Virus record (IMG/VR): IMGVR_UViG_3300027816_000115 | Coordinates: 1 to 58,437 of that record | DNA length: 58,437 bases | Source: a virus | Taxonomy: Duplodnaviria; Caudoviricetes | Reading direction: 5' to 3' (one strand) | In this document: piece by piece, positions 505-27,865 of the stretch | Numbering within the stretch: position 1 is the first letter of the stretch | Layout: the number at the start of each line of letters is the position of its first letter | Made by a program: the position numbers and the translations under genes | Notes under the pieces: generated by a model | Database searches by the model: none | The model's input: only the letters and a program-made list of their open reading frames with translations | What the model was told of the DNA's origin: nothing

Positions 505-529
505 GATTAACAAGCTAATTTAAACGATT

Positions 530-829: not shown

Positions 830-841
830 AATATAGAAATT

Positions 842-1057: not shown

Positions 1058-1063
1058 TGTGTT

Positions 1064-1104: not shown

Positions 1105-1121
1105 CAAAAAAATATAATAAT

Positions 1122-1584: not shown

Positions 1585-1593
1585 CCAAATAAT

Positions 1594-1926
1594 ATGGCAA
1601 ATAAAATAACAATGGATTCGGTACATGCTTTTGTAATAGGTAAACCGTTTCGACGTGAAAATATGGATGTTGAAATTGATGGCGATAATGTGTACTTAAA
1701 ATTACACGGTAATATCATTGCCTTACGTTCTAATCTTGATGGTAAAGTTTATATTCGCAATTGCGGTTGGGAAACAAAAACAACTAAGGAGCGGTTGAAT
1801 TGGTTGCTATACACGTACAACTCTCCGTTGAAAATCCGTCAAAAAAATTGGGTGTGGTATCTTGGTGATGAACAATGGGACGGCGATAAAACTTATATAT
1901 ACAAGCCGAGCACGGCCGCTAATTGA
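1594..1926 (+). CDS. Conserved phage early protein (GWxTxTTKERLN type)
   Basis: Motif CGWETKTTKERLN...IRQKNWVWY, which I recall from phage hypotheticals. Confidence 0.65.
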   Translation: MANKITMDSVHAFVIGKPFRRENMDVEIDGDNVYLKLHGNIIALRSNLDGKVYIRNCGWETKTTKERLNWLLYTYNSPLKIRQKNWVWYLGDEQWDGDKTYIYKPSTAAN

Positions 1927-1940
1927 TAATATAAATGTAA
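1900..1940 (+). promoter_or_regulatory. Early promoter-like motif copy 5
   Basis: TACA-AGCCG-AGCACG-N9-TGATAATA-TAAATGTAA; ATG at 1956. Confidence 0.75.
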
Positions 1941-1955
1941 CTAAAAATAAATAAT

Positions 1956-2147
1956 ATGGGAGTATATCCAGTAACAAAAGAATATAGTGTTGAAGTAGTT
2001 GAAACACTTATTAGAATAGTAACCGTTGAAGCAACGAGTGAAGAACAAGCAATAGAGTTTGTAATGTATGACTATAACAATGCGGAATTAGTATTGGATA
2101 GCGATGACTTTTTTGATGTAGAATTTGAAATTGTAAATAGAGATTAA
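1956..2147 (+). CDS. DpnD/PcfM-like small protein
   Basis: YSVEVVETLIRIVTVEATSEEQA...LVLDSDDF pattern. Confidence 0.65.
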   Translation: MGVYPVTKEYSVEVVETLIRIVTVEATSEEQAIEFVMYDYNNAELVLDSDDFFDVEFEIVNRD

Positions 2148-2148
2148 T

Positions 2149-2271
2149 ATGGAAGAATATAGCGGTTGTTGTGGTGCACCAAGACACCATGTATTTAATG
2201 AACTTTGTGCCGACTGTTTAGAGCATTGTTCCTTTGAAGAAGAATTTGACGAAGATGGATTTACAATCTAA
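2149..2271 (+). CDS. Small Cys-rich (Zn-finger-like) protein, 40 aa
   Basis: Hand-read MEEYSGCCGAP...CADCLEHC. Confidence 0.55.
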   Translation: MEEYSGCCGAPRHHVFNELCADCLEHCSFEEEFDEDGFTI

Positions 2272-2302
2272 ACACGATTATAAATTGATAATATAAATGT
2301 AA
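2262..2302 (+). promoter_or_regulatory. Early promoter-like motif copy 6
   Basis: TACA-ATCTA-AACACG-N9-TGATAATA-TAAATGTAA; ATG at 2316. Confidence 0.75.
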
Positions 2303-2315
2303 CAAATAATAAATT

Positions 2316-2483
2316 ATGAGACCACCATGCCCGCCTTTCAGTCCTTGTTGGTGTGAACAAAATCCAACAAACCCAAGATGCTCTGAAACATTACCACTAT
2401 CAAGTGAAGTATTCTCAGCAATAGTGTCTTTGTTAATAATATATGTAGCTCATAGATTTCTTAAAAATAAATTAAAACAATAA
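2316..2483 (+). CDS. Small Cys/Pro-rich membrane-anchored peptide
   Basis: Hand-read MRPPCPPFSPCWCEQNPTNPRC..., then a hydrophobic helix and basic tail. Confidence 0.5.
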   Translation: MRPPCPPFSPCWCEQNPTNPRCSETLPLSSEVFSAIVSLLIIYVAHRFLKNKLKQ

Positions 2484-2495
2484 ATAAAAATTAAT

Positions 2496-2705
2496 ATGGT
2501 AAAATTAAAATATCGTTTTGAAGAAATATTAGTTGCTTATAAAACTTATGGCAATTATAGAATGGCTACTCGTGAAGACCCCGAAGAATATCCTGAAGTA
2601 GTAATTTATGAGGTTTATTTTAACAATGTAAATATATTACCAATACTCAGTGAAACCGATCAAGATGAAATTTATGAACTATTAAATGAACACTTATATG
2701 GATAA
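2496..2705 (+). CDS. Early hypothetical protein
   Basis: ORF track. Confidence 0.6.
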   Translation: MVKLKYRFEEILVAYKTYGNYRMATREDPEEYPEVVIYEVYFNNVNILPILSETDQDEIYELLNEHLYG

Positions 2706-2806
2706 TGCAGAAAACTTTAATGAATGGATGCGAGACGTAGTAAAAAGTTATTACTATTCTGATAACGAAAAAATGCTCGCTGCTTTTAACACAATGACAG
2801 ATAAAA

Positions 2807-3013
2807 ATGGAAGAAACTATCAACCACCGCGCGTACCTAAAAGCATTAGCTAAGGTTACTACACTTGCTTTTGATATTAAAAAATGCAAAGAAGATTTAA
2901 GATGGGATACCGGTAACGGTCCTTTATCAACAGAACAATTAGAATGTTGTCTACGTTCTGCTCAACGTGAATATGATATTTGGAATTATATACTTAAAAT
3001 TACAGAAAAATGA
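2807..3013 (+). CDS. Early hypothetical protein
   Basis: ORF track. Confidence 0.55.
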   Translation: MEETINHRAYLKALAKVTTLAFDIKKCKEDLRWDTGNGPLSTEQLECCLRSAQREYDIWNYILKITEK

Positions 3014-3189
3014 AAAAAATTAAATTTTTAAAGAACAACTTAATCCGTATCAACGGCGTGCTATACACACCATATTGTGTTGGCGATTTACCACAAACTT
3101 TCGGCTTTATAACAAACGAAGAAAAAGATCAAGTAGGTGTGTACAACTGGTTTAACTATAAAGGTTTTACCTATATTATAAAACCATAA
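3010..3189 (+). CDS. Early hypothetical protein (59 aa)
   Basis: Hand-read MKKIKFLKNN...; ATGA overlap with the previous ORF. Confidence 0.5.
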   Translation: MKKIKFLKNNLIRINGVLYTPYCVGDLPQTFGFITNEEKDQVGVYNWFNYKGFTYIIKP

Positions 3190-3198
3190 AATAACTAT

Positions 3199-3423
3199 AT
3201 GGATAAATTAGTAAAATTAACTGATATTAAAGATGGCGTAGTATATTATACTGACACTGTCAAAGACTGTGAAGTAATACTAAACAAAATATTAAATAAA
3301 ACTATATATTTTGATATAGTCTCCGAAAGTGATGGTGATTATATACTTGAACCCGACGGCACTATAGCCTTTCCACTTCAAGAAGATTTAGAATTTATTG
3401 AAAAAAATACCGATACAGTCTAA
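3199..3423 (+). CDS. Early hypothetical protein
   Basis: ORF track. Confidence 0.6.
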   Translation: MDKLVKLTDIKDGVVYYTDTVKDCEVILNKILNKTIYFDIVSESDGDYILEPDGTIAFPLQEDLEFIEKNTDTV

Positions 3424-3454
3424 ACACGATAACAAATTGATAATATTAATGTAA
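3414..3454 (+). promoter_or_regulatory. Early promoter-like motif copy 7
   Basis: TACA-GTCTA-AACACG-N9-TGATAATA-TTAATGTAA; ATG at 3471. Confidence 0.75.
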
Positions 3455-3470
3455 TTAAAAAATAAACAAA

Positions 3471-3800
3471 ATGAGTGAAGAAAAAACAACTATTTCATTA
3501 GAGCAAGCGGTTAGTCGCTTTAATGATTTTCAAAAAAACGGATTGAACACTGTAACAATCGAGGATGTATTAACTATATTAAACCAAGTACAAAATGGAT
3601 ATAGTGAAGATGTAATATCTAAAACATTAGAAGCTGTACTTTCAAATTTTGAATATGATGAATTTGTAAGTTGTGAACCCGAATTGCACGGCAGCTATGG
3701 CGATAGTTATTCACTTGAAATGAATACTAGCTTTGATGATAGAGAATTTAAAAGATGCTTTACCATGGATTTTATGGGACATTTAGAAACAGAAGAATAA
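3471..3800 (+). CDS. Acidic early hypothetical protein
   Basis: ORF track. Confidence 0.65.
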   Translation: MSEEKTTISLEQAVSRFNDFQKNGLNTVTIEDVLTILNQVQNGYSEDVISKTLEAVLSNFEYDEFVSCEPELHGSYGDSYSLEMNTSFDDREFKRCFTMDFMGHLETEE

Positions 3801-4051
3801 TGAAAGCAAAACAAATTAAAGATTATATAGAAGAATGTTTACAGCAAACGCCAAGGCATGATTGTGTTGCTTTGGCGAAGGCCATAACAAAAGCAAGTAA
3901 ACAATTTGATCAAAATGAATTTGATATGATGCACCTATTATTAGAAAATCAACCAATAGGCAATTACACACATAGCTATGGTTTTCATACCGCATACGGC
4001 AGAGAACTTATAAACACCATGCAAGATTATTATTATAAATTTAACAAATAA
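3800..4051 (+). CDS. Early hypothetical protein
   Basis: ORF track; start moved to the TAATG overlap at 3800. Confidence 0.6.
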   Translation: MKAKQIKDYIEECLQQTPRHDCVALAKAITKASKQFDQNEFDMMHLLLENQPIGNYTHSYGFHTAYGRELINTMQDYYYKFNK

Positions 4052-4063
4052 AAAAATTAGAAT

Positions 4064-4339
4064 ATGAATACAATTAAAACAGTAGAAGACTTTAAAAAGT
4101 TTGTAGGCAATGAAGGCAAATTATTTAGTGTAACATTCACTAAACTTGACGGATCTAAACGTAAAATGGTCGCAAGACTAGACGTAAGAAAGTTCCTTAA
4201 AGGAGGGCAGTTATTATATAATCCTAGATCACGTAACAATATTATAGTATTTTCAATGCAAGAAGGTGATTACCGTACAATTAACATTGATAGATTATTA
4301 AAAGTAAAAGCATATAATACTACCATTCAAGTAGGGTAG
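4064..4339 (+). CDS. WYL_2/SH3 (Sm-like) beta-barrel protein
   Basis: FSVTFTKLDGSKRKM...VFSMQEGDYRTINIDRL pattern. Confidence 0.6.
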   Translation: MNTIKTVEDFKKFVGNEGKLFSVTFTKLDGSKRKMVARLDVRKFLKGGQLLYNPRSRNNIIVFSMQEGDYRTINIDRLLKVKAYNTTIQVG

Positions 4340-4340
4340 T

Positions 4341-4372
4341 TACAAACATAACACGAATATTAACTGATAATA
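4341..4372 (+). promoter_or_regulatory. Early promoter-like motif copy 8
   Basis: TACA-AACAT-AACACG-N9-TGATAATA; ATG at 4389. Confidence 0.7.
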
Positions 4373-4388
4373 AATTAAACTAAACAAA

Positions 4389-4994
4389 ATGAATTTACTA
4401 ACTCAAAACTCTAAGCTTCGTAAAACTAGTAAGCTACTTGGTGTAAAAGTTTTTAACTTTGGTATACCAGCATATAAGTCAGCAAGCGGTAAATTAACTT
4501 GCCCATTTGCTGATGAATGTGTTAAATTCTGTTATGCACAGAAAGGCGCATATATTTGGTCTAATGTTAAACCTGCATTTGAAAAGCGATATGAGCTAAC
4601 TCGAAGTGACGAGTTTGTTAGCAAAATGTCAGACGAGTTATTTAAGAAGCGCCCTGACTATGTAAGAATACATGACTCCGGTGATTACTACAGCAAAGCA
4701 TACCTACAAAAATGGATTGATATTGCTAATCTATTCCCAGAGATTAAGTTCTATAGTTATACTAACTCTGTAGCAATGTTAAAAGAAGCTAATTTACCAT
4801 CTAACTTTGATGTAATCTTTAGTGACTCTGGTAAACAAAAAAATATGATTGATGTAATCAATGATCGTCACACTAAAATCTTTTCTTCTAAGCAAGCTCT
4901 TGAAGATGCTGGCTATGTTAATGCTAGCGAATTAGATTTGTATGCAACTAAATGGTTTAGTAATAACAATAAAGTTGGTTTGGTATTTCATTGA
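4389..4994 (+). CDS. GP88-family (radical-SAM-like Fe-S) protein
   Basis: NSKL, TCPFADECVKFCYA, RIHDSGDYY and YSYT motifs. Confidence 0.7.
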   Translation: MNLLTQNSKLRKTSKLLGVKVFNFGIPAYKSASGKLTCPFADECVKFCYAQKGAYIWSNVKPAFEKRYELTRSDEFVSKMSDELFKKRPDYVRIHDSGDYYSKAYLQKWIDIANLFPEIKFYSYTNSVAMLKEANLPSNFDVIFSDSGKQKNMIDVINDRHTKIFSSKQALEDAGYVNASELDLYATKWFSNNNKVGLVFH

Positions 4995-5020
4995 TATATG
5001 GCACTGTAAGTGCTATACAC

Positions 5021-5195
5021 TGTTGATCTCTGGGACTATGTAAATTTACTCCGCTAAGTTCGGTTGTAGTCGAATTGCAAATAAAGAATTTAACCGGTTT
5101 GCAGATCAACATATCGTCAACACTGGCAAGACGTAAAATTTGCCATAGCTAGCTAAGCTGTGAAAAGCGCCGGAACTTATAATCCGCTAGAAGCT
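5021..5195 (+). ncRNA. Putative structured ncRNA(s): multi-stem element, H-type pseudoknot and three-way junction
   Basis: TGTTGATCT/AGATCAACA closing stem; CGTC/GACG with TGGCAA/TTGCCA pseudoknot; CTAGC/GCTAG junction; no ORF. Confidence 0.45.
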
Positions 5196-5196
5196 A

Positions 5197-5299
5197 AGTC
5201 AGGTGGCGGAATTGGTAGACGCAACCCCGAACTGCTTGTAAAAGTGGGTAATTAGATAATCGTAAGCTAATTATACAGGTTCGAATCCTGTCCTGACTA
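5197..5299 (+). ncRNA. tRNA-like RNA 1 (non-canonical anticodon arm)
   Basis: AGTCAGG/CCTGACT acceptor, TGGCGGAATTGGTAGACGC D arm, ACAGG-TTCGAAT-CCTGT T arm; expanded anticodon region. Confidence 0.75.
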
Positions 5300-5318
5300 C
5301 AATAAAAGAGTAAATAGT

Positions 5319-5417
5319 ATGAAATTAGAAGAACAAATCGGTGTTTTTATAGTTATAGGTTTTGTGATGATTCTATTTATTATAGGTGTTGCAATTTTTG
5401 ATAAAGATAAACATTAA
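5319..5417 (+). CDS. Small single-pass membrane peptide (32 aa)
   Basis: MKLEEQIGVFIVIGFVMILFIIGVAIFDKDKH, between the two tRNA-like RNAs. Confidence 0.5.
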   Translation: MKLEEQIGVFIVIGFVMILFIIGVAIFDKDKH

Positions 5418-5425
5418 CGAAACAT

Positions 5426-5524
5426 AGTCAGGTGGCGGAGAGGAAACGCTAACTATGAATAGTCTGAGGAATGGAACATAGTCCTATACTCCAATGACCG
5501 CAGGTTCGAATCCTGTCCTGACTA
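5426..5524 (+). ncRNA. tRNA-like RNA 2 (no recognisable anticodon loop)
   Basis: Same acceptor stem and near-identical T arm as RNA 1; different central region. Confidence 0.7.
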
Positions 5525-5552
5525 CAAATTATAATAAAAAATAATATTCGTT

Positions 5553-5593
5553 TACAGTCTGAACACGAATAACAATAGATAATAATAATGTAA
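5553..5593 (+). promoter_or_regulatory. Early promoter-like motif copy 9
   Basis: TACA-GTCTG-AACACG-N9-AGATAATA-ATAATGTAA; ATG at 5610. Confidence 0.7.
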
Positions 5594-9141: not shown

Positions 9142-9906
9142 ATGAAAAGCTACAACATACCAAATTATATAAGGTACAAAGAAGATATAGCTCGTGTTAA
9201 TAAGGATAATAACGAAATAGATTTTAAATCATATTCTAGAGATCAGCTTATAAGTAAGTTTTTACCATTAGTAGAAAATATAGCTAAAAAGTTTTCAACA
9301 ACAACGCAAGCTTCTGGTATATTAGATATTACAGATCTTATTCAATATGGTTCAATTGGATTAGTATTAGCTGTTGACAAAATAGAATGGAGCACAATAA
9401 GCTCTTCTGTTGATCAAGAAAAAACAATTAAGTCGTTTCTATCAAAAAGAATTAAAGGCTCGATTAGAAGGGCTATAGATATTAATAGAGGCGCTATTAA
9501 AATTCCAGAGCATAAGCTAAATGAAATTAGAAAAGATAATGGTCAAGATCATCAAATGGCTGCATTGTTTTTTAATTCTATATTTCTTAGTATTGATGAA
9601 CAAATGAGCGATGAAGACGATGAGAATATGTTATACCAAATACCGGATAGAGCAGAGCCGTATAACATTGATAAAATGAATAGGTTCCTTAAAGAGTTAT
9701 TAGAAAAACATTTAACATATACGGAATATCATGTATTAAGTTTAAGTTATGGATTAGATGGCGATAAATATCCAGCTAATGCAATAGCAGATTTTTTAGG
9801 TATTGAAGGAGCAAGCGCTTATATTAGAATTTCAGAAATTAAGAAGCAAGCAATCGCTAAATTAATTGCTAACGTTGATTCCTCACAAGTCATTGATTAC
9901 CTATAA
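9142..9906 (+). CDS. Phage-encoded sigma70-family RNA polymerase sigma factor
   Basis: Region 2 LPLVENIAKKF..DLIQYGSIGLVLAVDK..IRRAID..IKIP; region 4 VLSLSYGLDG..IADFLG..RISEIKKQAIAKL. Confidence 0.85.
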   Translation: MKSYNIPNYIRYKEDIARVNKDNNEIDFKSYSRDQLISKFLPLVENIAKKFSTTTQASGILDITDLIQYGSIGLVLAVDKIEWSTISSSVDQEKTIKSFLSKRIKGSIRRAIDINRGAIKIPEHKLNEIRKDNGQDHQMAALFFNSIFLSIDEQMSDEDDENMLYQIPDRAEPYNIDKMNRFLKELLEKHLTYTEYHVLSLSYGLDGDKYPANAIADFLGIEGASAYIRISEIKKQAIAKLIANVDSSQVIDYL

Positions 9907-19723: not shown

Positions 19724-22700
19724 TTAATCACCGCCAATTTTTCTTTTCTTTTTCTTAGGAAAAACACCTGTTTCATAATAAATTCCTCTCTCCTCCGGCG
19801 TCATAGCGTCTAAAATTTTATCCTTAGCACTTCCTTTTTTTGATTTTCTTTCAGCCTCTTCCATGTAAAAAATTTCTCGTTCTTCTGGTGTCATTTTATC
19901 TAAAGCATCCTCCCTTTCTTTTTTGTTTTTAGCTTTAGTTTCTATTGATTTTATAATACCTTCTTCTTTTCTTTTTACTTTAGCAGCGGCTTTAATTAAT
20001 TCATTTTCTTCATTCTTAACATTTAATTCCCATTCTTTCCATCCTAGCATTAAAGCAGCTCTTTGTAATTTTGTATTACGAGAATCCAAAGCTTCTGAAA
20101 CATTATCTATTTTTTCAACAAGACGATCTAATGGTACATTTGTAGTTGCTACAGCAATGTTACCAACTATTGAATAATTAGGACTAAGATTAAGTCTACC
20201 ATCTCTTGTAATTTCCCATCCTCTTTCCTCTATTACATCTTTCTCAAACTTTTTAATTCTATGTACACCATATAATTTTCTAGCTTTTGAACTTATAGGA
20301 GGAGATATGCCGGCAACAGCTAATATTGTATAAGCATGATCGGCAAACATTTCTCTTTGCTCTTGTTTATTATATTCCATTACGGCATTTTTAATAGTAG
20401 ATATTAATGCACCTGTTATACCAGACCCTCTTAATACTGTATCAGCCATTCCGTTTAGAATATTAATAGTTTTATCTTCTTGCTTTTTCTTTAACTTGTC
20501 ATACTCAGCTCTTTGTTCCTTTGACATTTTAGCTAAAACTTCTTCTTCCTCATCTTCAAAAGGTAAAAACAATGCCGATTGCAAAGCCGAGAATATAAAG
20601 TTTTGTAATGCTCCATAATATAATATTTTTGACATATTAGTTTTCCAGTCTCCACGCTTATTAACTAAGTCTAAAGTAGCTTTCTTTATCAATCTATTAT
20701 ATTGTAAAGGAGTATTAGCAAAAGCTAATACAAGACGTCCTAATGAGGTTGTTTGCTGTTTTGATATATACAATGGATCAGCGGACTGCATGGATTGATC
20801 AGAGATCATTGAAAAATCTAACCAAGCTTTATCTTCTGCTTCTTTTTTTGTATTTATCAAATTGCCATCTTCATCTGCTTGTTTTAAATAAGTATTAACT
20901 CTATTTCTATAAAATGCAGCACCACCAATTGCAATAGAAAAACTATCTGCAGCTTGTGTAGGTGTAAACCCTATTTTTTGTAGATATGAAAGAATACCTC
21001 TAGCTTTATTTTTAGCACTATTAGCAGCATTAGCAATCTCAGCTTGTGTAACATCTGCTTTTAATCCAGCTCTTCGTTCTCTCATTTTATCTGAGTTAAT
21101 AATCATAGCGAAATCTGTCCAATATTGCTTTTGATTTGCAAATGCTTTTGCCGCCATTAAAGGATTATTATCATTCCAGTTTAAATAGTTGATTGAAGAT
21201 ATTGTTTGCAATATAGCGGAACGAACATTAAAGAACATGATTGCAGCAGTAGATCCGTTTATCCAGTTCATCCAACGATTAGTTAGAGCGTCAGTGCCTT
21301 CAGGTCTATTCTTACCATTCTTCATTCTATATAAAGCATCCTCAAGAGCTATCCTTACATTCGTTCCATATATAGCTTGTATCTTGTTTAAATTTTCAGT
21401 CGAGAAAATAGCATTGGCATTTTCTATAAATTCAGCCAACCATTGTTTTCTACCATCACCTTCTGTAATATTATGTAGATCAGAAATAATAGTTTCGCTA
21501 TCCCATGTATCAGAAGGTTCCATCCAGCCACCGTCTTGTCTACCTGCTATAGATAAGGCTTCGGCAAAAGAAAGTAAATTGGGATCGGTTTTAACAAGAT
21601 ATACTAATTTATTTTTATCTTTCCTGTTTAATCCCGGTATTTCTATATTATTCTTATTCCATAAATATACCCTTATAGCTTGATCATAAGTAAACTGCTT
21701 ATCAGGAGTAAGTTTTTCTAATTTAGATTTAATATCCGGAAATTCAGATAACAATGCTTTGTATTCTTTTTTTATAGATTGCCTAACAGAATCTAAGGCA
21801 TTTATTCCTTTTACATAAGGTATAACTAAATTTTTATCAAAAAATTGCTGGTCTAATTCTCCTTGTTTGCCTTTGCCTGAAAACATGTAGGTTGTTAATC
21901 CCCTAAAGTCATCTGCAGATGGCGGTACGAAAAATGATAAGTTTCTTACTTTTGCTCCTTTTCTTTTTGCAACAACATCAGAAAATTTCTCATAAGAAGG
22001 TATGGCTTTATTGCGTTCAAGCATATCATTAAATTCGTAGTCTAAAGACTTACTAAATTTAGGTCTTGCTTTCCATTTAGTATCATTATTAATCCATTCA
22101 TTTAATTGTTTTTCTGCAGATTTAATAGTCTCTAAATTAAGAGCATTATTTACCGCTGCCATTAAAGGTCCACCTTCGTTTTCACGATCCTCAATTATAT
22201 CAAAAGCATAATCAACAGAACTAACCATTCCGTCTATTGTTTTATCTTCAAGAATACCCCACCATTCCTCTATAGATTTATTAAGATCATTTAATACATC
22301 AAAAGAAGTTTCCGCATCTATTCTTCTAATATTATTTGCAGTAATATAGTCAGATACTACCGTAATACCTTTGTTATCTTTGTTAAAGGAGTTTAAATTA
22401 TTTTCTAAAGACTTAGAGTGCATGCTGTTTCTTTTTCTTTGCATAACAGCATTGACCTTGTCGTTTATATCCTTTAAACTTAATTTAGAAGCTATTTTAT
22501 CAATATCCTTAGCTGCTTTTTTATTTATATAAAAATAAATTCTAGGTCTTAAATAACCATTCTTTTCTATTTTTAATTCAACTTGCGCAGTAATAATATC
22601 GGTATCAGTTATTTCATATTTTTCTAAAAAATCAGCTCCAAAATAATCTGTTAAAGAAGTTCCAATTACTAATAAATCGTTACTAAAAGCTTTATTATTA

Positions 22701-25700
22701 TTGATATCTTTTATACTATCAATAGATAAATCTATTTTAAATATAGTTTTTTTACCTTTTAATAAAGATTTCAACCCCTCAACATCTTTTATTTTATATC
22801 CACCGCTTTCTGTCTCATTTGTTAAATAATCTCCAATTTGTTTAAATAAATTTGTTTCTTTAAAATCATTATATTCTTCTATTATTTTTTTACCCCAATC
22901 GGTTCCAGAATATTTAGTTTTTACAACATTAAGCGTAGCGGATGTCATTCTTGCAAATATATCTTTTTTTATTTCAACGATAACTTTTAAAGCGTTATCT
23001 GTTTTAATATTTTTTAAACTTTTGCCTTCGCTTATTAAAACGTCTGGAACATAATTATTGTTACCACCAAATAGTTTATAAATATAATTTTTTGATAAAC
23101 GACTTTTTATTATTCCGCCTATAAATTTTTCATGTTTATAATGAGCTATTTTATCTAATACGTCATTATATTTTGTAAATAGCTCTTCTAAGTCGTCGTC
23201 TGTAAATCCATTTGTGATTAATTTATTATATAAAGCTTTAAATGGATTATATTCTCCTTTTCTTTCTATCATTGCTGCATTAAAACTGCTTTTTTCTATA
23301 AGATAACTTATTCCATCTGTAAGTTCTTTTTCTGTTAAAGAAAATTTAATATTGCCGCGCTCCGCTAGTCTATTAAATTCTTCTACTATTATTCTTTCAG
23401 TAATAGCACCTTTTAACTCTTGATTTCTGTTTAATGCTTCAGCTATAATACCATCATTAGCAATATCGTCAGATATAATATCAAATGAAACCTCTTCCGC
23501 TAATACTTTAGCCAAAGCTTCTTTTCTTCCTCTAATTATATTACCCGTCTCTAAGTCTATAATAGATGATAAAAATTCTGTAGTTGACACATTCTTATTA
23601 ACTTCAGGCAATCTTCTAACCATTTCATGGCCAGCTGTTCTACCTGCTAAATCAACGTCTACAGATTCTCTGTCTATTTTTTTACCAACCCATTCTGGAT
23701 AATTAAGCCAACGGCCATTTACTCTTTTTTGTATTGCAAAAGGCATACCTCCTAATACTTTATTCCCTTGATCTTTACCCATTAACCAAGTAGTCGTCAT
23801 ATTTTCAAGAATGGTTTTTTTGTTAACAATTAACCAATTTTGTAACTCTTGATTTTCTTTACCGCCCATTGCTTTCTTAATATCAATGTCAGCCTGCTTA
23901 CCCATTTCATCTCTTATTTCTGCAATTAGAGGAACAACAGTTTTATTCAAAGATGTTTTTTCATTAATCTTTGATTTCAATGTTCTTACAACAGGTAATA
24001 TTTTAGTCTGAATATTTTCAATAACATCGGGACTAAATACGCCTGACTCCAATATGTTCTGGAAACGTTTTCTTTCAGGCAATGACGGTTTAGTTACTTC
24101 AACATCCTCGTTAGCTAACTTGGTCATTTCAGTAATATCCTCAGTAAACACAACGTTCGCAACTTCGCCACTTTTTAAAGCAGCTCTCATACGGTTTATA
24201 TATTGTGCATTTATATATCCATATAAACTGTTGTTTCTAGATGGATCAAACTTAGCAATATACGGTATCATCGATGTTCTAACATAACTAGTCATCTCGT
24301 CCATATCAAAACCGTCTAATCCCCCTTTATCTTTATTTGTAAAATCTATAACTGTCCCTTTATTGGTTCTCCAGTTTCTTGATTTTACTTTAACCATTTT
24401 ATCAAGTTCACTATATATAGTTGGATTACCAGGATCAAAACCTTTTGGGTCATTACCAATAGCATCAAGTTTAGCTTTAGCTTTAGCCGCTACTTCACTT
24501 ATTTCTATATCTTCTTTTGATTTTGGCTCTTTAGGTTTTGCTTCTTTTTTCTCTGCTTTTTTAACCTCTGGCTCTTTACTTAAACCAGTTTTTTGTTCTT
24601 CATATTCCTTACGTTTTAATTCGGCTTCCTCTTTTTCAAGAGCAATCATTTTTCTTTCGTAAGTATCATAATCAATTTCACCGTCATTAAGTTGTTCATC
24701 TAAAGCATCCATTCTTTCTTCAATAGACTTAGAATATTTTACAGTTGTTGATATCGGTCTTCCGTCTAATAATTCTTTAGCGCGAGTGCTTATTCTCCCT
24801 TTACTAGCATTTGATTGGTAATCTTTTAGAAAATCATAAAAATCTCTACCTTCACTAAACTTAGCATTAGAAAACCCTAGTTTTCTTAAAACTTTTAGAA
24901 TTGGTCTAGAAGCTCTTCTTAGTACATCTTTAACTTGATTTTTACCACCAATTTGCCCATAAGCAATAGCATCAATAAAAGCAGTAAAATACTCCTCTAA
25001 ATTATCATCACTTAATTTACCAGTATCTTTGTCTAAATAATTTTCATCAATACGTTTTTGAATTATAGCTCTTTCCTTTGCAGTTAATACAGATAAAAAT
25101 CCATTAACTACTTTTTTTCTTTCCATAGGGTCACTAAGAGCTTTAGCTAATACCTTATGTAAAAATTCATGCTGAGCAACATTGATTGCTCCTTTTGCAG
25201 AAGCCATACTAAGATTGATAACAGATTGGCCATTTGATAATTCAAATCCATCTGATTTTGCTCCTTCTTCTACTTCGGCATTTATTTGATCATCAGATTT
25301 TATATATAAATCCGGGTCTACAGCCGTATCTGCAGGTAATTCGCCGGATGATATTTTTTTATTAATATCATCTATTTGTTGCTTAATAATATTATTTTCT
25401 GCAACTAACCATTCTTTGTAAGCCTTCTTAAGTCCCTCAATAGTTTCAAATACGGCAATAGAACCTTGATTACCTATTTTATTAGATATTTCCTCTTCGC
25501 CTAATGTAGATATAATTTTTTTAATATTATCAACACTGGTATTAATTATAGCTTTGTTGCTTATTATTTTATTTATTTGAGCATATTGACCAGTTAATAA
25601 ATATTCTCTCTTTTCTTCTAATTTATTAAATTCATTTTTTAATTCAGCAGCTTTATCTTTTTTTATTTCTGGCGAAAAGTTAGATTGAGATAATTCTATA

Positions 25701-27865
25701 TATGAATTTCTTAAATCTTGTTGTTTTCTATTTATATCTAAAACAGCGGTCATGTCTTCCGTTGACATATCATAGACTCTATCCTCCGAATTTTCAATAA
25801 CTTTTATTGACTCATTCGATAATGTTTTTATTTCAGATATTATTTCTTCACTTTCCTTAACAGACAGTTTTGCATTTGTTTGCAATTCTGTTTGCAAAAA
25901 ATCTATACGATCCATTATACTCTTACTAGCAGTCATTTCTTGAGCTGTAGCATAATTTTTTAATTCTTTTGCTACAAGAAGAGAAACTCCTCCACCCATT
26001 TGGGTTCCACCCCCCATAAACGCTCCTCCCGCATAAGCTTCTTTAAACCTTTTAGATCTTTCTGATGGAGCTACAGTTTTTCCAAGTAAATGCTCGTCTA
26101 ACAGCATATTTAATCCCTCTGTCAATACTTCAGTACCACCCTCAATTTGACTTTCAATACCAACTGTTCCAATGGTTTTTAAACTTGATTTAATAAAGTT
26201 TTCTTTAAATATTTGTCTGGACTGAGTATCAACAGAAGACATGACTTTTTTCATATTGTCAAACATTCTTAATGTACCTAGTTTTTCAGGTATAAATTCT
26301 GAAAGTGCAAATCCATAACCAGCTAATAATTTAGTACCTAAGTCGTAGTTAGACCCAAGTTCATCTTCCATTTCTTGGATTTTTTGTCCCCCTGATCCTA
26401 ATGACACAGCAGCGGCTCCGTAGGATCCTCCGAAATACATTGCAGCATATACTGGAATTTGTTCAAATAATAAACCTGAAAAATATTTACCAAAGTCAGC
26501 GAAGGAGTTAACATCATCAAAAGATGTGGTTTTTACATTTTCTTTAAATTTATTACCAACTCTTATATTAGCTTCACCAACTTCACTTAATAAATTGCCT
26601 ATACCATCTGTTATTCCTAAAAATGACTCTCCGTAATCAATAGTATCACCTATTATCTTTGCTGATCCGCCAAGAATATTAATACTAGTACCAACAAACC
26701 TAGAAATACTAGATTCAATATCATTATAGTTGTATTTAAAATATTCTAATTTTTCCTCATCACTTTTTATTTTATCAATATAATTTGGAAAATTTTCATA
26801 TATTCCTTCTAAACTAGTTTTTGCTTTGTTAGCTGAATTTCTAAGGTTCTCGTATGTAGCTATTTCATCATTAGTAACTTTTCCCTCATTATAGAAGGTT
26901 TTAAATTTTTTAGCATATTCTTCAAATCCGGCTAATTCATTACTATAGGTTTTAGCCAATATGGTTTGTTGACGGGCTAAATCAGATGATACTAATACGT
27001 CTTGTATTGCTCTAATTTTAAGTTTTTCTTTTTGAATAGCAACTTCAGGCATCCATGTGGGTTGACTGTCCCAGTACTCTTCAGCGGCTTTGCCTTCTTG
27101 TATTAATATTTTTTCTTTATAAAATATTTCTTTAGCAAGAGCGTCAACATCTTCAGCACTTATTTTCTGACCTTTTTTCTTTCTTTTTGATAATATGCCT
27201 ATAGCTTGCTTTTTTTCTTTCTCTAATGGCTTAAATGGGGATATAGTCAAATCTATTTCAGCACCAAGAGCTTGACCTACCATAGAAACTGGTCCTAATA
27301 CAATATCATTAAGCCAATTTTTACTGCCTTCTCTTATATAATCTATAGCCTGTGAATCGTTTATTTCGTCATTATATAATTTATCAATTAAACCATAATC
27401 AATTGGTTTACTTTTTATATAATTAATTACTTCAGATTCTTTACTTTCTAGTTCTTCCCATTCCTGTTTAGCAGGCGTTTTAGGAAGATTAGCTAGCGTT
27501 TTATTAAACTCTTCTGCTGGATTTAAAATAGATTGCAATTGATCTTTTTGTCCAAAAGGAAAATTTGCATTTTGTTGATCTATAAAATTTGAAACTTCCT
27601 CAGTGCTTTTCTTTATATTAGCTGCTTGAACTTTTTTAGCTTGTTTAAATTTGCCAAGAAAATCACCTTTAGGCTCTTTTTCCTCTTGATTACTCCAAGG
27701 ATATGTTTTTTTAGTTTGTTTTGTAACTGTTGAAGTTGTAGAAGATTTTCTTTTTAAACCTTTACTTTTTATAATGGCACTAGCCGAGGTTTTTTGCTCG
27801 GCTGCCATTTTATTTATTTGATCTTCTGTATATATTTGCCCAGAGGCATCAGTGTATTCAAACAT
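19724..27865 (-). CDS. Giant (2713 aa) internal virion/ejection polyvalent protein: zincin peptidase, sigma-region-2-like and PD-(D/E)XK-like modules
   Basis: Last gene of the structural operon; Gly-rich hydrophobic helices; HEFLH at aa 899; KFDPSR at aa 1205; PD..EIK at aa 1607-1633. Confidence 0.75.
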   Translation of the reverse strand: MFEYTDASGQIYTEDQINKMAAEQKTSASAIIKSKGLKRKSSTTSTVTKQTKKTYPWSNQEEKEPKGDFLGKFKQAKKVQAANIKKSTEEVSNFIDQQNANFPFGQKDQLQSILNPAEEFNKTLANLPKTPAKQEWEELESKESEVINYIKSKPIDYGLIDKLYNDEINDSQAIDYIREGSKNWLNDIVLGPVSMVGQALGAEIDLTISPFKPLEKEKKQAIGILSKRKKKGQKISAEDVDALAKEIFYKEKILIQEGKAAEEYWDSQPTWMPEVAIQKEKLKIRAIQDVLVSSDLARQQTILAKTYSNELAGFEEYAKKFKTFYNEGKVTNDEIATYENLRNSANKAKTSLEGIYENFPNYIDKIKSDEEKLEYFKYNYNDIESSISRFVGTSINILGGSAKIIGDTIDYGESFLGITDGIGNLLSEVGEANIRVGNKFKENVKTTSFDDVNSFADFGKYFSGLLFEQIPVYAAMYFGGSYGAAAVSLGSGGQKIQEMEDELGSNYDLGTKLLAGYGFALSEFIPEKLGTLRMFDNMKKVMSSVDTQSRQIFKENFIKSSLKTIGTVGIESQIEGGTEVLTEGLNMLLDEHLLGKTVAPSERSKRFKEAYAGGAFMGGGTQMGGGVSLLVAKELKNYATAQEMTASKSIMDRIDFLQTELQTNAKLSVKESEEIISEIKTLSNESIKVIENSEDRVYDMSTEDMTAVLDINRKQQDLRNSYIELSQSNFSPEIKKDKAAELKNEFNKLEEKREYLLTGQYAQINKIISNKAIINTSVDNIKKIISTLGEEEISNKIGNQGSIAVFETIEGLKKAYKEWLVAENNIIKQQIDDINKKISSGELPADTAVDPDLYIKSDDQINAEVEEGAKSDGFELSNGQSVINLSMASAKGAINVAQHEFLHKVLAKALSDPMERKKVVNGFLSVLTAKERAIIQKRIDENYLDKDTGKLSDDNLEEYFTAFIDAIAYGQIGGKNQVKDVLRRASRPILKVLRKLGFSNAKFSEGRDFYDFLKDYQSNASKGRISTRAKELLDGRPISTTVKYSKSIEERMDALDEQLNDGEIDYDTYERKMIALEKEEAELKRKEYEEQKTGLSKEPEVKKAEKKEAKPKEPKSKEDIEISEVAAKAKAKLDAIGNDPKGFDPGNPTIYSELDKMVKVKSRNWRTNKGTVIDFTNKDKGGLDGFDMDEMTSYVRTSMIPYIAKFDPSRNNSLYGYINAQYINRMRAALKSGEVANVVFTEDITEMTKLANEDVEVTKPSLPERKRFQNILESGVFSPDVIENIQTKILPVVRTLKSKINEKTSLNKTVVPLIAEIRDEMGKQADIDIKKAMGGKENQELQNWLIVNKKTILENMTTTWLMGKDQGNKVLGGMPFAIQKRVNGRWLNYPEWVGKKIDRESVDVDLAGRTAGHEMVRRLPEVNKNVSTTEFLSSIIDLETGNIIRGRKEALAKVLAEEVSFDIISDDIANDGIIAEALNRNQELKGAITERIIVEEFNRLAERGNIKFSLTEKELTDGISYLIEKSSFNAAMIERKGEYNPFKALYNKLITNGFTDDDLEELFTKYNDVLDKIAHYKHEKFIGGIIKSRLSKNYIYKLFGGNNNYVPDVLISEGKSLKNIKTDNALKVIVEIKKDIFARMTSATLNVVKTKYSGTDWGKKIIEEYNDFKETNLFKQIGDYLTNETESGGYKIKDVEGLKSLLKGKKTIFKIDLSIDSIKDINNNKAFSNDLLVIGTSLTDYFGADFLEKYEITDTDIITAQVELKIEKNGYLRPRIYFYINKKAAKDIDKIASKLSLKDINDKVNAVMQRKRNSMHSKSLENNLNSFNKDNKGITVVSDYITANNIRRIDAETSFDVLNDLNKSIEEWWGILEDKTIDGMVSSVDYAFDIIEDRENEGGPLMAAVNNALNLETIKSAEKQLNEWINNDTKWKARPKFSKSLDYEFNDMLERNKAIPSYEKFSDVVAKRKGAKVRNLSFFVPPSADDFRGLTTYMFSGKGKQGELDQQFFDKNLVIPYVKGINALDSVRQSIKKEYKALLSEFPDIKSKLEKLTPDKQFTYDQAIRVYLWNKNNIEIPGLNRKDKNKLVYLVKTDPNLLSFAEALSIAGRQDGGWMEPSDTWDSETIISDLHNITEGDGRKQWLAEFIENANAIFSTENLNKIQAIYGTNVRIALEDALYRMKNGKNRPEGTDALTNRWMNWINGSTAAIMFFNVRSAILQTISSINYLNWNDNNPLMAAKAFANQKQYWTDFAMIINSDKMRERRAGLKADVTQAEIANAANSAKNKARGILSYLQKIGFTPTQAADSFSIAIGGAAFYRNRVNTYLKQADEDGNLINTKKEAEDKAWLDFSMISDQSMQSADPLYISKQQTTSLGRLVLAFANTPLQYNRLIKKATLDLVNKRGDWKTNMSKILYYGALQNFIFSALQSALFLPFEDEEEEVLAKMSKEQRAEYDKLKKKQEDKTINILNGMADTVLRGSGITGALISTIKNAVMEYNKQEQREMFADHAYTILAVAGISPPISSKARKLYGVHRIKKFEKDVIEERGWEITRDGRLNLSPNYSIVGNIAVATTNVPLDRLVEKIDNVSEALDSRNTKLQRAALMLGWKEWELNVKNEENELIKAAAKVKRKEEGIIKSIETKAKNKKEREDALDKMTPEEREIFYMEEAERKSKKGSAKDKILDAMTPEERGIYYETGVFPKKKKRKIGGD

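What the first reader, a model, noticed from the sequence alone, without database searches (positions are those of the whole stretch)
23348..24724. Sigma70 region-2-like domain inside the virion protein: a possible injected sigma factor for the early promoters
Seen: MIPYIAKFDPSRNNSLYGYINAQYINRMRAAL (aa ~1199-1230, nt ~24175-24270). It resembles the sigma70 region 2.2-2.4 pattern (AxxKFDPxRGxxFxxYAxxWIRxxI) that binds core RNAP and melts the -10 element. No phage RNA polymerase is evident in the window. The stand-alone sigma (9142-9906) appears to be transcribed from the early promoters, so it cannot start them. Inference: a virion-delivered sigma-like fragment reprograms host RNAP to the nine TACA/AAYACG/TGATAAT promoters, and the encoded sigma then drives middle/late genes. 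This would be a two-sigma cascade in place of the virion RNAP used by crAss-like phi14:2.
Basis: partly seen in the sequence, partly recalled or inferred. Interest (0 to 1): 0.85.

Follow-up and report, generated by a model that had tools for sequence, protein, structure and literature searches.

The report
Sigma-like module inside giant phage protein
A giant protein of an uncultured marine-type phage carries a short module that looks like the part of a bacterial sigma factor that grips RNA polymerase, so the phage may bring its own promoter-recognition factor into the cell, but binding and function are untested.

Summary
The motif is real. It lies on the minus strand at aa 1199-1230 of a 2713-aa ORF (19724-27865).

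Several methods that differ in approach each rank sigma factors first, though each only weakly. Pfam finds nothing, and profile-profile P ranges from 1.3e-5 to 0.0095. Foldseek lists on the AF2 model are dominated by sigma chains, all with E>0.1. The only PDB sequence hit is a sigma factor (E 0.46). The top three ESM-atlas clusters are sigma. A complex prediction with Flavobacterium beta-prime gave weak support only.

The likeness is confined to aa ~1146-1237 (sigma region 2). The adjoining, most conserved domain (aa 1265-1509) has no sigma3/sigma4 likeness and no PDB match.

No phage RNA polymerase was found: there is no DFDxD motif and no T7-like family match.

The tripartite early promoter is real. 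The window has nine copies, and the motif occurs in all 22 relatives' records whose whole record was searched.

The module is embedded in a giant ORF in 79 of 80 related loci.

My reading is a gp55-like sigma2 module inside a virion polyvalent protein that engages host RNA polymerase. An injected early sigma is plausible (about 0.3-0.45) but unproven.

The parts
19724..27865 (-). Giant ORF of 2713 aa (P0001). It is the last gene of the minus-strand structural operon and is a presumed virion/ejection 'polyvalent' protein.
   Evidence: ORF listing and translation. Its aa 155-738 match, at 26-27% identity, the 3694-aa protein annotated 'structural protein' in Flavobacterium phage elemoA. It lies downstream of crAss-type muzzle homologues. 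991 homologues had E<=1e-3 among 8000 scored candidates; the 120 listed are 1507-3196 aa.
24155..24430 (-). Sigma-region-2-like module, aa ~1146-1237. It has helices equivalent to regions 2.1, 2.2 and 2.3/2.4.
   Evidence: hhalign aligns it to RpoD ~375-451 in one constant register, with P from 1.3e-5 to 0.0095. Foldseek on the AF2 model returns 41 sigma entries among the 46 PDB rows shown, all with E>=0.18; the best domain-level match is 8b3z_C, TMt 0.67, rmsd 2.8. The only PDB hmmsearch hit is sigma factor 8b3z_A, E 0.46. The top three ESM-atlas clusters are sigma, score 0.86.
24176..24271 (-).
   Evidence: In 20 homologues at >=95% conservation: P1201, I1203, K1205, F1206, D1207, P1208, N1211, S1213, L1214, G1216, Y1217, A1220, Q1221, N1224, M1226, A1229, L1230.
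24074..24154 (-). Acidic linker predicted with low confidence, between the sigma2-like module and the conserved domain.
   Evidence: AF2 model residues 149-165 have pLDDT <50.
23339..24073 (-). The most conserved domain of the protein, aa 1265-1509. It is a compact alpha+beta fold without a PDB match and carries many invariant polar and basic residues. Its function is unknown; it is a candidate DNA-binding or RNAP-binding partner of the sigma2-like module.
   Evidence: Conservation profile and invariant columns. AF2 gives pLDDT 87.3 and pTM 0.84. Foldseek pdb shows no sigma, and every listed row has probability <=0.06. hhalign against the sigma profile gives P 0.2-0.3.
23339..23347 (-). Conserved ERGN(I/V)K(F/Y)S boundary motif that closes the sigma-like segment. 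It is a candidate processing site.
24731..24739 (-). KYS motif at aa 1043-1045, upstream of the segment. It is a candidate processing site and is less well conserved.
25157..25171 (-). Zincin motif HEFLH, aa 899-903, with conserved E958. It is a candidate self-processing metallopeptidase of the polyvalent protein.
   Evidence: H899, E900, H903 and E958 are conserved at >=95% in 20 homologues. The concept of MPTase processing comes from passages read in PMC5512222.
19916..22078 (-). C-terminal conserved block, aa 1930-2650. It has no RNA polymerase motif. By protein-language features, its nearest clusters are viral proteins, some carrying the polyvalent-protein domains LPD38/LPD39.
   Evidence: Conservation. 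No DxDxD motif. ESM atlas scores 0.94-0.97, with LPD38 on 92% of one cluster and LPD39 on 28% of another. Pfam HMMs themselves do not hit.
66..5583 (+). Array of nine tripartite early promoters, TACA-N5-RAYACG-N9-TGATAAT. They lie at 66-96, 293-323, 464-494, 1064-1094, 1900-1930, 2262-2292, 3414-3444, 4341-4371 and 5553-5583.
   Evidence: The same motif, on one strand only apart from a single opposite-strand match in G017, is present in 4 of 4 and then 18 of 18 related records searched, with 0 reversed-pattern control matches.
9142..9906 (+). Stand-alone phage sigma-70-family gene (254 aa), downstream of the early promoter array.
   Evidence: PF04542 E 2.5e-4 and PF04545 E 0.2. Six-frame search E 7.2e-6. 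All 8000 scored candidates had E<=1e-3 (the cap), and many are named sigma-70 family by their sources. It is present in 5 of 5 records tested.

Best explanation
The 2713-aa ORF is a polyvalent, multi-cassette protein of a crAss-related, roughly 60-kb podovirus of Flavobacteriia-type hosts. It is probably packaged in the virion and ejected into the cell. One cassette, between conserved K(F/Y)S boundary motifs at about aa 1046-1509, starts with a diverged sigma-70 region-2 module (aa ~1146-1237). After an acidic linker comes a very conserved domain of unknown fold (aa 1265-1509).

Proposed mechanism:
1. The cassette enters the cell with the DNA, either still in the giant protein or after cleavage.
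2. Its sigma2-like helices dock on the beta-prime clamp helices of host core RNA polymerase, as sigma region 2 and T4 gp55 do.
3. Together with the adjoining domain, it directs or assists initiation at the tripartite early promoters that cluster at the genome end.
4. This gives the phage early transcription without a phage RNA polymerase.
5. The stand-alone sigma, encoded downstream of those promoters, then serves later genes.

Shown: the sequence motif, its family-wide presence, the sigma-first ranking in several searches, the absence of recognisable RNAP motifs, and the conserved promoter array.

Inferred: virion location, ejection, cleavage, RNAP binding and promoter recognition.
For: 1. 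Likeness to sigma region 2, from searches that differ in kind:
- AF2 model of aa 1100-1520: pLDDT 81.5.
- Foldseek pdb: 41 of the 46 rows shown are sigma-factor entries. The SigE N-terminal domain 8b3z_C gives TMt 0.67 and rmsd 2.8 over 83 columns.
- Foldseek BFVD: 12 of 50 rows are named sigma factors, including rank 1.
- When the sigma2-like part is left out, 0 sigma rows remain.
- hmmsearch of a 42-sequence profile of the module against 177,635 PDB sequences returns one hit, a sigma factor, in the region 2.2-2.3 register.
- The ESM-atlas top three named clusters are all sigma / Sigma70_r2.
- hhalign gives P 1.3e-5 and Prob 81% in the best setting, far above the shuffles, and these are the top 2 of 121 windows in the protein.

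2. Five sequence subfamilies keep the same pattern, an acidic helix followed by K(F/Y)xP..G..L..(Y/F)I, despite 8-27% identity.

3. Complex prediction with RPOC_FLAJ1 150-420:
- Verdict: weak support, with median score 0.37 (runs 0.43, 0.36, 0.37) against a best control of 0.02.
- The mark was reached by 58 of 80 solved complexes and 2 of 110 mismatched pairs. At 0.60 or under it was reached by only 7 of those 80 and by both mismatches that passed.
- The runs agree in >=90% of contacts, and the partner pLDDT is >=77.
- Sigma/beta-prime complexes are solved, so the pass may reflect likeness only.

4. There is a precedent for a sigma2-only factor. T4 gp55 contacts the clamp helices through acidic residues and reads a -10-like element (passages of PMC7892883).

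5. No RNA polymerase was found:
- No DxDxD in the giant ORF.
- No D[FYWLIVM]DxD in any long ORF in six frames.
- PF00940 hit 0 of 5 records, including one 100% complete.
- 30 ORFs scanned with PHROGs without an RNAP.

6. The promoter array is conserved, with 9 copies here and presence in 22 of 22 relatives.

7. Context as a virion polyvalent protein.
Against: - No single test is significant by its own standard. Every Foldseek E-value is >=0.13. The PDB hmmsearch E is 0.46. The ESM score of 0.86 is below the tool's 0.9 'lead only' line.
- The tool's own hhalign gives Prob 4.3% and P 0.0095. My script variants give P 0.002-0.03. Subfamilies C, D and E alone give nothing.
- Pfam Sigma70_r2 does not hit the window's protein or any of 10 subfamily representatives. 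phmmer against 1.84 billion representatives found 236 hits at E<=1e-3; the 150 listed are mostly giant proteins and short fragments, with no sign of the huge sigma family.
- There is no similarity to the phage's own sigma family.
- There is no sigma3/sigma4 equivalent.
- In the hhalign register, the melting tryptophans W433/W434 of RpoD align with A1220/Q1221 (my mapping of the alignment; the RpoD residue numbers are recalled).
- The module sits more than 1000 aa inside a giant ORF in 79 of 80 loci, and cleavage is unproven.
- The complex score falls in the band that the tool calls 'more often wrong than right unless the guess was likely beforehand'. A stand-in host protein was used.
- Virion location rests on a GenBank annotation of a 27%-identical N-terminal region and on gene position.
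Confidence: 0.45

Rival explanations
1. The sigma2-like module does bind host RNA polymerase at the beta-prime clamp helices, but it is not an initiation factor. It could act as a competitor that displaces host sigmaA (host shut-off). Alternatively, it could be a tether that holds host RNAP at the cytoplasmic end of the ejection complex, so that transcription from the promoter array pulls the genome in, as RNAP does for T7 (that comparison is recalled). The tripartite promoters would then be read by the stand-alone sigma or by host sigmaA with a phage factor.
For: The evidence for a sigma2 fold and for beta-prime docking is the same as in the main reading. No sigma4-like or other recognisable DNA-reading domain was found next to the module. 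In my mapping of the alignment, the melting tryptophans of group-1 sigmas are not conserved. The stand-alone sigma is present in 5 of 5 records tested.
Against: The stand-alone sigma lies downstream of the promoter array with no separate promoter seen, so something else must start transcription. The early promoters do not match the Bacteroidota TAnnTTTG element (the consensus itself is recalled). The adjoining domain is the most conserved part of the protein and is rich in invariant basic and polar residues, which would suit DNA contact.
Confidence: 0.25
2. The likeness to sigma is a remote or convergent helical resemblance with no transcription role. The segment would be a structural or otherwise functional part of an ejection or polyvalent protein. 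Early promoters would be served by host RNAP with the stand-alone sigma, or by an unrecognised factor.
For: Every individual statistic is weak: Foldseek E>=0.13, hmmsearch E 0.46, tool hhalign P 0.0095, and Pfam 0 of 11 sequences. Short helical bundles match easily. The review of polyvalent proteins does not mention sigma anywhere in its main text (0 occurrences). The complex verdict is only weak.
Against: Searches by profile HMM, by predicted fold and by language-model features all put the same family first, always in the same register. The sigma hits vanish when the module is removed. The module is the best sigma-like window out of 121 in the protein. The pattern persists across five divergent subfamilies.
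Confidence: 0.25
3. The giant protein is itself an unrecognised virion RNA polymerase, functionally like crAss gp66 or N4 vRNAP. The sigma-like module would be its built-in promoter-specificity element.
For: The position of the gene after the muzzle and tail genes mirrors crAss-like phages (that gene order is recalled). The long conserved promoters at the genome end resemble those used by virion RNAPs. Two large conserved blocks have unknown folds.
Against: There is no DFDxD or DxDxD motif in the ORF or in any long ORF. That motif is stated to be in all crAss-like virion RNAPs (abstract of bioRxiv 10.1101/2020.03.07.982082, seen in the listing). PF00940 found nothing (though its control genomes were silent). 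There are no PDB hits for the whole-protein profile. The C-terminal block resembles LPD38/39 clusters rather than polymerases. I did not fold the C-terminal block.
Confidence: 0.05

Closest known systems
Bacteriophage T4 gp55 (late promoter specificity factor, a diverged sigma-70 family member)
   Same: It contains only a sigma-region-2 homology domain. It contacts the beta-prime clamp helices through acidic residues of one helix, reads a -10-like element, and has no sigma4 (passages of PMC7892883). The module here is likewise sigma2-only. It has 2-4 acidic residues in the equivalent helix in all five subfamilies. The promoter's last box, TGATAATATAAATG, contains a T4-late-like TATAAAT (the T4 consensus is recalled).
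   Different: gp55 is a free 185-aa protein (size recalled), made in the infected cell for late genes, and works with gp33 and the sliding clamp. Here the module is buried in a 2713-aa presumed virion protein, is followed by an unrelated conserved 245-aa domain, and would act first rather than last. No sequence comparison with gp55 was run.
Phage-encoded free sigma factors (for example the stand-alone sigma of this same phage, 9142-9906)
   Same: They belong to the same protein superfamily (region 2) and carry out the same task of redirecting host core RNAP.
   Different: Free sigmas have sigma2 plus sigma4 (and often sigma3) and match Pfam models. The module here matches no Pfam model, lacks sigma4, shows no similarity to the phage's own sigma, and is not a separate gene.
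Virion RNA polymerases of crAss-like phages (phi14:2 gp66) and N4-like phages
   Same: Each is a giant protein encoded with the structural genes and delivered with the DNA to start early transcription from special promoters at the genome end. This phage also shares the crAss-type muzzle protein.
   Different: Those proteins are polymerases. The crAss type carries DFDxD (abstract in the listing) and the N4 type is T7-like. Neither signature is present here. The present protein would borrow the host polymerase.
Polyvalent proteins of phages and conjugative elements (Iyer et al. 2017, PMC5512222); T4 Alt as an injected RNAP modifier
   Same: They are very large multi-cassette proteins delivered with the DNA. 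They contain a zincin-like peptidase proposed to cut them into units, and their cassettes act on host machinery early in infection (passages). The present protein has HExxH...E, variable cassettes between conserved boundary motifs, and LPD38/39-like features.
   Different: The main text of that survey mentions no sigma-like cassette (0 occurrences of 'sigma'; its supplements were not seen). Pfam LPD and MPTase models do not hit this protein.

Membership tests
Sigma-70 family (Pfam Sigma70_r2 / Sigma70_r4) | Region 2 recognised by the family model PF04542 | tested here: not met
   There was no hit for the whole protein at E<=1 or for aa 1048-1506 at E<=10. The six-frame search of the window found only the stand-alone sigma. 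0 of 10 subfamily representatives hit.
Sigma-70 family (Pfam Sigma70_r2 / Sigma70_r4) | Sigma2 fold (helices of regions 2.1-2.4) | tested here: inconclusive
   Of the 46 Foldseek pdb rows shown, 41 are sigma entries, but all have E>=0.18. The best domain-level match is 8b3z_C with TMt 0.67 and rmsd 2.8. The sigma rows vanish without the module. hhalign P ranges from 1.3e-5 to 0.0095. The VIA-align libraries were unavailable.
Sigma-70 family (Pfam Sigma70_r2 / Sigma70_r4) | Region 4 helix-turn-helix (-35 reading, beta-flap binding) | tested here: not met
   aa 1264-1509 against the sigma profile gives P 0.2-0.3. Foldseek on the aa 1265-1520 model shows no sigma row.
Sigma-70 family (Pfam Sigma70_r2 / Sigma70_r4) | Binding of region 2 to the beta-prime clamp helices | tested here: inconclusive
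   Complex prediction gave weak support: score 0.37 against a best control of 0.02. The mark was reached by 58 of 80 solved complexes and 2 of 110 mismatches; at <=0.60 it was reached by only 7 of those 80 and by both mismatches. The result may stem from likeness to solved complexes.
Sigma-70 family (Pfam Sigma70_r2 / Sigma70_r4) | Conserved aromatic and polar residues of regions 2.3/2.4 that melt and read the -10 element | tested here: inconclusive
   In the hhalign register, Y1217 aligns with RpoD Y430 and N1224 with Q437. Both are >=95% conserved in 20 homologues. However, W433/W434 align with A1220/Q1221. The RpoD numbering is recalled.
T4 gp55-like sigma2-only factors | A sigma-region-2 homology domain without sigma4, with an acidic helix facing the clamp helices | tested here: inconclusive
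   The architecture fits. Acidic residues are present in the equivalent helix in all five subfamilies. No direct comparison with gp55 was run. The helix-loop-helix and clamp-binding motifs of gp55 were not looked for.
crAss-like virion RNA polymerase (gp66 type) | DFDxD catalytic motif in a large virion-packaged protein | tested here: not met
   No D.D.D occurs in the ORF. The only D[FYWLIVM]DxD in six frames lies in a 92-aa ORF. The motif definition comes from the abstract shown.
T7/N4-type single-subunit RNA polymerase | Match to PF00940 | tested here: not met
   0 of 5 related records matched, including a 100% complete one. The tool's control genomes also gave no match, so sensitivity is unproven. 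The whole-protein Pfam scan was also negative.
Polyvalent proteins (Iyer et al. 2017) | A giant multi-domain protein with a zincin-like processing peptidase and LPD domains, delivered with the DNA | tested here: inconclusive
   The HExxH...E motif is conserved. Variable cassettes lie between conserved boundary motifs. The ESM atlas shows LPD38/LPD39-bearing clusters at 0.94-0.95. The Pfam LPD and MPTase models do not hit. Delivery with the DNA is not testable here.

The most novel reading that the evidence does not exclude
A large family of uncultured Flavobacteriia-type podoviruses has replaced the virion RNA polymerase of its crAss-like and N4-like counterparts with an injected sigma. This is a sigma2-only module plus a new conserved domain, carried as one cassette of a self-processing virion polyprotein. 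At the cell-side end of the ejection complex it captures host core RNA polymerase and aims it at an array of 9-16 tripartite promoters on the entering genome end. This starts early transcription without new protein synthesis and possibly also powers genome entry.
Probability: 0.3. Interest if true: 0.9.

Novelty: new variant of a known kind. Interest (0 to 1): 0.72.

Why it matters
Phages are known to start early transcription in three ways. They use host holoenzyme promoters, inject their own RNA polymerase (N4, crAss-like and some jumbo phages), or inject an enzyme that modifies host RNAP (T4 Alt).

A virion-delivered sigma-like factor would be a fourth way. It would explain how an abundant metagenomic phage group manages early transcription: 991 protein clusters had E<=1e-3 among the 8000 candidates scored. 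These phages have crAss-type tails but no polymerase, and their promoters are unlike the host consensus.

It would also add a transcription cassette to the repertoire of polyvalent proteins, and a second natural example, after T4 gp55, of a sigma2-only specificity factor.

My literature searches for virion-packaged sigma factors returned no such case. One search gave 2 papers, on jumbo-phage RNAPs, and one search gave 1 paper, on restriction-modification; I saw listings only.

The prediction can be tested directly with a ~460-aa recombinant fragment, Flavobacterium core RNAP and a 45-bp promoter.

Tried and rejected
- Sequence searches gave no sigma. Pfam and PHROGs on the whole protein and on aa 1048-1506 gave no sigma. 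phmmer and a whole-protein profile against PDB gave nothing meaningful.
- hhalign against the phage's own sigma family gave no similarity: Prob 0.1, with template Neff 1.6.
- My first hhalign cut included misaligned columns (1372 match columns) and gave P 0.11. I replaced it with cleaner cuts.
- hhalign on the longer 165-column, 81-sequence alignment gave only P 0.02. Subfamilies C, D and E alone gave P 0.07-0.6. By eye I thought subfamily C looked ECF-like, but no test supports that.
- I looked for a sigma3/sigma4 in aa 1265-1520 and found none.
- A crAss-type or T7-type RNA polymerase was not found. I did not fold the C-terminal block or the N-terminal 1040 aa, so an unrecognisable polymerase is not strictly excluded.
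- A candidate second promoter motif (CGTAATA...TAT) upstream of later genes is not enriched: 26 matches against 18.9 expected, and 8 of 100 shuffles reach 26.
- A co-variation test was confounded. The subfamily C and E records use CGATAAT instead of TGATAAT (G017 9 of 9, G021 9 of 9, G020 4 of 4). These are also the most distant lineages overall, so nothing can be concluded. Four further fragments lacked the early region.
- No cultured phage carries the domain: tblastn against 50,697 phage records at E<=0.01 gave no match. A search for papers on the elemo phages found nothing relevant.
- Supplementary files of PMC5512222, which list all polyvalent-protein domains, were not seen. They could bear on whether this cassette was catalogued.

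Full report
**The object.** The finding's coordinates fall inside one ORF on the minus strand, 19724..27865, 2713 aa. The plus-strand frame is full of stops. The quoted peptide is aa 1199-1230, nt 24271..24176, and the finding's range equals aa 1048-1506.

The window is a virus record of 58,437 bases, estimated 91% complete, with 31.5% G+C. Its genes are as follows.
- Structural and replication genes: portal, large terminase, primase/helicase and ribonucleotide reductase.
- Recombination and nucleotide metabolism: Erf, exonuclease, thymidylate synthase and MazG.
- Chaperonins: GroEL-like and GroES-like proteins.
- Two ORFs match the crAss-virus muzzle protein families PF25731 and PF25729.

The terminase's nearest cultured relatives are phages of Flavobacterium, Cellulophaga, Tenacibaculum and Maribacter. 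Of 87 matching records, 86 are cultured and one is an uncultured Caudoviricetes record. A Flavobacteriia host is therefore likely but not shown.

**The giant protein and its family.** aa 155-738 resemble, at 26-27% identity, the N-terminal part of a 3694-aa protein annotated 'structural protein' in Flavobacterium phage elemoA.

The region aa 1100-1520 retrieved 991 proteins with E<=1e-3 among 8000 scored candidates. The 120 listed are 1507-3196 aa. An exhaustive phmmer search of 1.84 billion representatives gave 236 hits at E<=1e-3. The 150 listed are mostly giant proteins plus short fragments, and there was no flood of ordinary sigma factors.

In an alignment of 20 homologues, two blocks stand out as conserved: aa ~1100-1510 and aa ~1900-2650. 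The zincin signature H899-E900-x-x-H903 with E958 is conserved at >=95%. Short K(F/Y)S motifs sit at cassette boundaries. ERGN(I/V)K(F/Y)S closes the segment of interest, and (I/V/P)K(F/Y)S(K/R) precedes the C-terminal block. Some homologues carry extra cassettes between these motifs.

The C-terminal block's nearest clusters by language-model features are viral proteins. Some carry the polyvalent-protein domains LPD38 (92% of one cluster) or LPD39 (28% of another). In the survey that defined polyvalent proteins, a zincin-like peptidase is proposed to cut them into functional units, and LPD38 is found only in phages (passages of PMC5512222). That paper's main text never mentions sigma (0 occurrences). 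I could not see its supplements.

**Is the module sigma-like? Negative results.**
- Pfam finds no sigma model in the whole protein, in aa 1048-1506 at E<=10, in a six-frame search of the window other than the stand-alone sigma, or in 10 representatives of the other subfamilies.
- PDB sequence searches with the single sequence or a whole-protein profile give nothing.
- The profile of the phage's own sigma family shows no similarity.

**Is the module sigma-like? Positive results.**
- An AF2 model of aa 1100-1520, built on 36 sequences, has mean pLDDT 81.5.
- Foldseek against the PDB gave no match at E<=1e-3. Even so, 41 of the 46 rows shown are sigma-factor entries: sigmaS, sigma32, sigmaA, FliA, WhiG, and the B. 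subtilis sigma-H and sigma-D models. Their E-values run from 0.18 upward. The isolated SigE N-terminal domain 8b3z_C superposes with TMt 0.67 and rmsd 2.8 over 83 columns.
- Against predicted viral structures, rank 1 and 12 of 50 rows are named sigma factors.
- A second model without the N-terminal part (aa 1265-1520; pLDDT 87.3, pTM 0.84) gave no sigma row at all. It gave only scattered helical proteins at probability <=0.06. The sigma signal therefore comes from aa ~1120-1245.
- A profile of that module from 42 sequences of five subfamilies, searched against 177,635 distinct PDB sequences, returned a single hit. It is a sigma factor (8b3z_A, E 0.46), aligned across regions 2.2-2.3.
- The ESM atlas gave three sigma / Sigma70_r2 clusters as its best named clusters, at 0.86. 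The tool calls that a lead only.

**Profile-profile comparison.** I compared the module with a small sigma profile made of six E. coli sigmas plus the phage sigma. The result depends on settings.
- The best case is P 1.3e-5, Prob 81%, score 35.0 for aa 1179-1244. Column shuffles (n=60) gave mean 9.0, sd 1.7, max 16.0, and the reversed query gave 9.9.
- Other cuts gave P 0.002-0.03.
- The tool's own run gave Prob 4.3% and P 0.0095.
- Subfamilies C, D and E alone gave nothing.
- Whenever there was an alignment for the whole family or for subfamilies A and B, its register was the same: RpoD regions 2.1-2.4.
- In a scan of 121 windows over the whole protein, the two best lie on this module.

In that register, K1205-F1206 match K418-F419, R1210 matches R423, L1214 matches F427, Y1217 matches Y430 and N1224 matches Q437. 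W433/W434 face A1220/Q1221. This is my mapping; the RpoD numbers are recalled.

All five subfamilies keep an acidic helix followed by a K(F/Y)xP..G..L..(Y/F)I pattern, at only 8-27% identity to the window's sequence.

I judge a true sigma2-type fold and ancestry at about 0.75-0.8.

**Binding to RNA polymerase.** One complex prediction paired aa 1119-1244 with residues 150-420 of Flavobacterium johnsoniae beta-prime. The verdict was 'weak support'.
- The median score was 0.37 (runs 0.43, 0.36, 0.37), against a best of three controls of 0.02.
- The mark was reached by 58 of 80 solved complexes and 2 of 110 mismatched pairs.
- At 0.60 or under, it was reached by only 7 of those 80 solved complexes and by both mismatches that passed.
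- The runs agree in at least 90% of contacts, and the partner's pLDDT is at least 77.
- No interface was reported.

Because sigma/beta-prime complexes are solved, the pass may reflect likeness rather than binding. A stand-in host protein was also used. It raises my odds a little.

**Is there a polymerase?**
- There is no D.D.D in the giant ORF.
- In six frames, the only D[FYWLIVM]DxD lies in a 92-aa ORF. All crAss-like virion RNAPs are said to carry DFDxD (abstract of bioRxiv 10.1101/2020.03.07.982082, seen in the listing).
- PF00940 hit none of five related records, one of them 100% complete with terminal repeats. The tool's control genomes were also silent, so that test's sensitivity is unproven.
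- PHROG scans of 30 ORFs named no RNA polymerase.
- I did not fold the C-terminal block or the first 1040 aa.

**The promoters.** TACA-N5-RAYACG-N9-TGATAAT, allowing up to 2 mismatches, occurs 9 times in the window. All copies are on the plus strand between 66 and 5583, and the reversed-pattern control gives 0.

The same motif occurs in 4 of 4 close relatives, with 8, 16, 3 and 10 copies. It also occurs in 18 of 18 further relatives that share the conserved domain at 48-69% identity, with 2-14 copies. It is on one strand except for a single opposite-strand match in G017, and the control is 0 everywhere. The complete relative has 16 copies, so the window probably lacks a few kb of the early end.

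Three distant records use CGATAAT throughout. That co-variation is confounded with overall distance.

The motif does not fit the Bacteroidota TAnnTTTG element (consensus recalled; scan). The stand-alone sigma gene (9142-9906) lies downstream of the array. The 199 bases before it contain no such element and appear to encode a small ORF.

**Architecture.** In 79 of 80 IMG/VR loci there is no in-frame stop within 1000 aa upstream of the conserved domain. In 77 of 80 there is none downstream within the locus. The module is thus a fixed internal cassette, not a gene of its own. No cultured phage carries the cassette.

**Comparison and verdict.** The closest working model is T4 gp55. It is a diverged sigma-family protein with only a region-2 homology domain. 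It binds the clamp helices through acidic residues and reads a -10-like box (passages of PMC7892883).

The closest functional analogues are the virion RNA polymerases of N4-like and crAss-like phages and the injected modifier T4 Alt.

The cassette fails two defining tests of a canonical sigma, the Pfam region-2 model and region 4. I therefore do not file it as a sigma-70 family member in the ordinary sense. It may still work like one.

Two literature searches for virion-packaged sigma factors found no such case; I saw listings only.

My odds are:
- 0.45: a virion-delivered cassette that docks on host RNAP and directs or assists early initiation.
- 0.25: RNAP binding without promoter specificity.
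- 0.25: no transcription role.
- 0.05: a hidden polymerase.

Noticed in passing
window 23339-24073 (-), aa 1265-1509: This is the most conserved domain of the giant protein. The model is confident (pLDDT 87.3, pTM 0.84), with a compact alpha+beta fold and many invariant N/T/K/R/E residues. It has no PDB fold match above probability 0.06 and no Pfam family.
   Followed up: partly
records G017, G020, G021 (reached via L091, L093, L094): In these distant relatives every promoter copy reads CGATAAT instead of TGATAAT (9 of 9, 4 of 4 and 9 of 9). Their sigma2-like regions belong to the divergent subfamilies C and E. This is a possible handle for a co-variation test, but it is confounded by phylogeny.
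   Followed up: partly
window 32370-35777 (-) and 30837-32300 (-): These ORFs are homologues of the crAss-virus muzzle protein (PF25731 E 4.9e-11; PF25729 E 1.2e-9). They sit in a ~60-kb phage that lacks the DFDxD virion RNA polymerase of crAss-like phages.
   Followed up: partly
window 50932-52494 (-) and 46276-46887 (-): The phage encodes a GroEL-like chaperonin (phrog_5725, E 8.8e-134) and a GroES-like co-chaperonin (phrog_13932, E 1.7e-24).
   Followed up: no
window 19724-27865 (-): aa 1043, 1507, 1936: Conserved K(F/Y)S motifs sit at cassette boundaries. In some homologues extra cassettes are inserted between them, for example a ~100-aa insert ending in GYNDFYFADD. A conserved HExxH...E zincin motif lies at aa 899-958. 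Together these suggest a self-processing polyprotein.
   Followed up: partly
window 66-5600 (+): The promoter consensus continues past TGATAAT as TGATAATATAWATGTAAC in most copies. A conserved ATG-TAA (start-stop) therefore follows each promoter. Its meaning is unknown.
   Followed up: no
window ~25900-26500 (-), aa ~455-650 of the giant protein: Glycine-rich hydrophobic stretches occur here, for example runs of G/A/V/L around aa 470-500 and 610-640. They look like membrane-inserting segments, as expected of an ejection protein. This was seen in the translation only.
   Followed up: no
whole window: None of the 30 ORFs scanned with PHROGs was named a DNA polymerase, although primase/helicase, Erf, exonuclease, RNR and thymidylate synthase are present. 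Not all ORFs were scanned.
   Followed up: no
L001 (NC_055852.1) 11386-22470: The 3694-aa 'structural protein' of Flavobacterium phage elemoA shares only the N-terminal ~650 aa with this protein. It has its own HExxH at aa 1543. tblastn with the cassette found no match in any of the phage records.
   Followed up: partly
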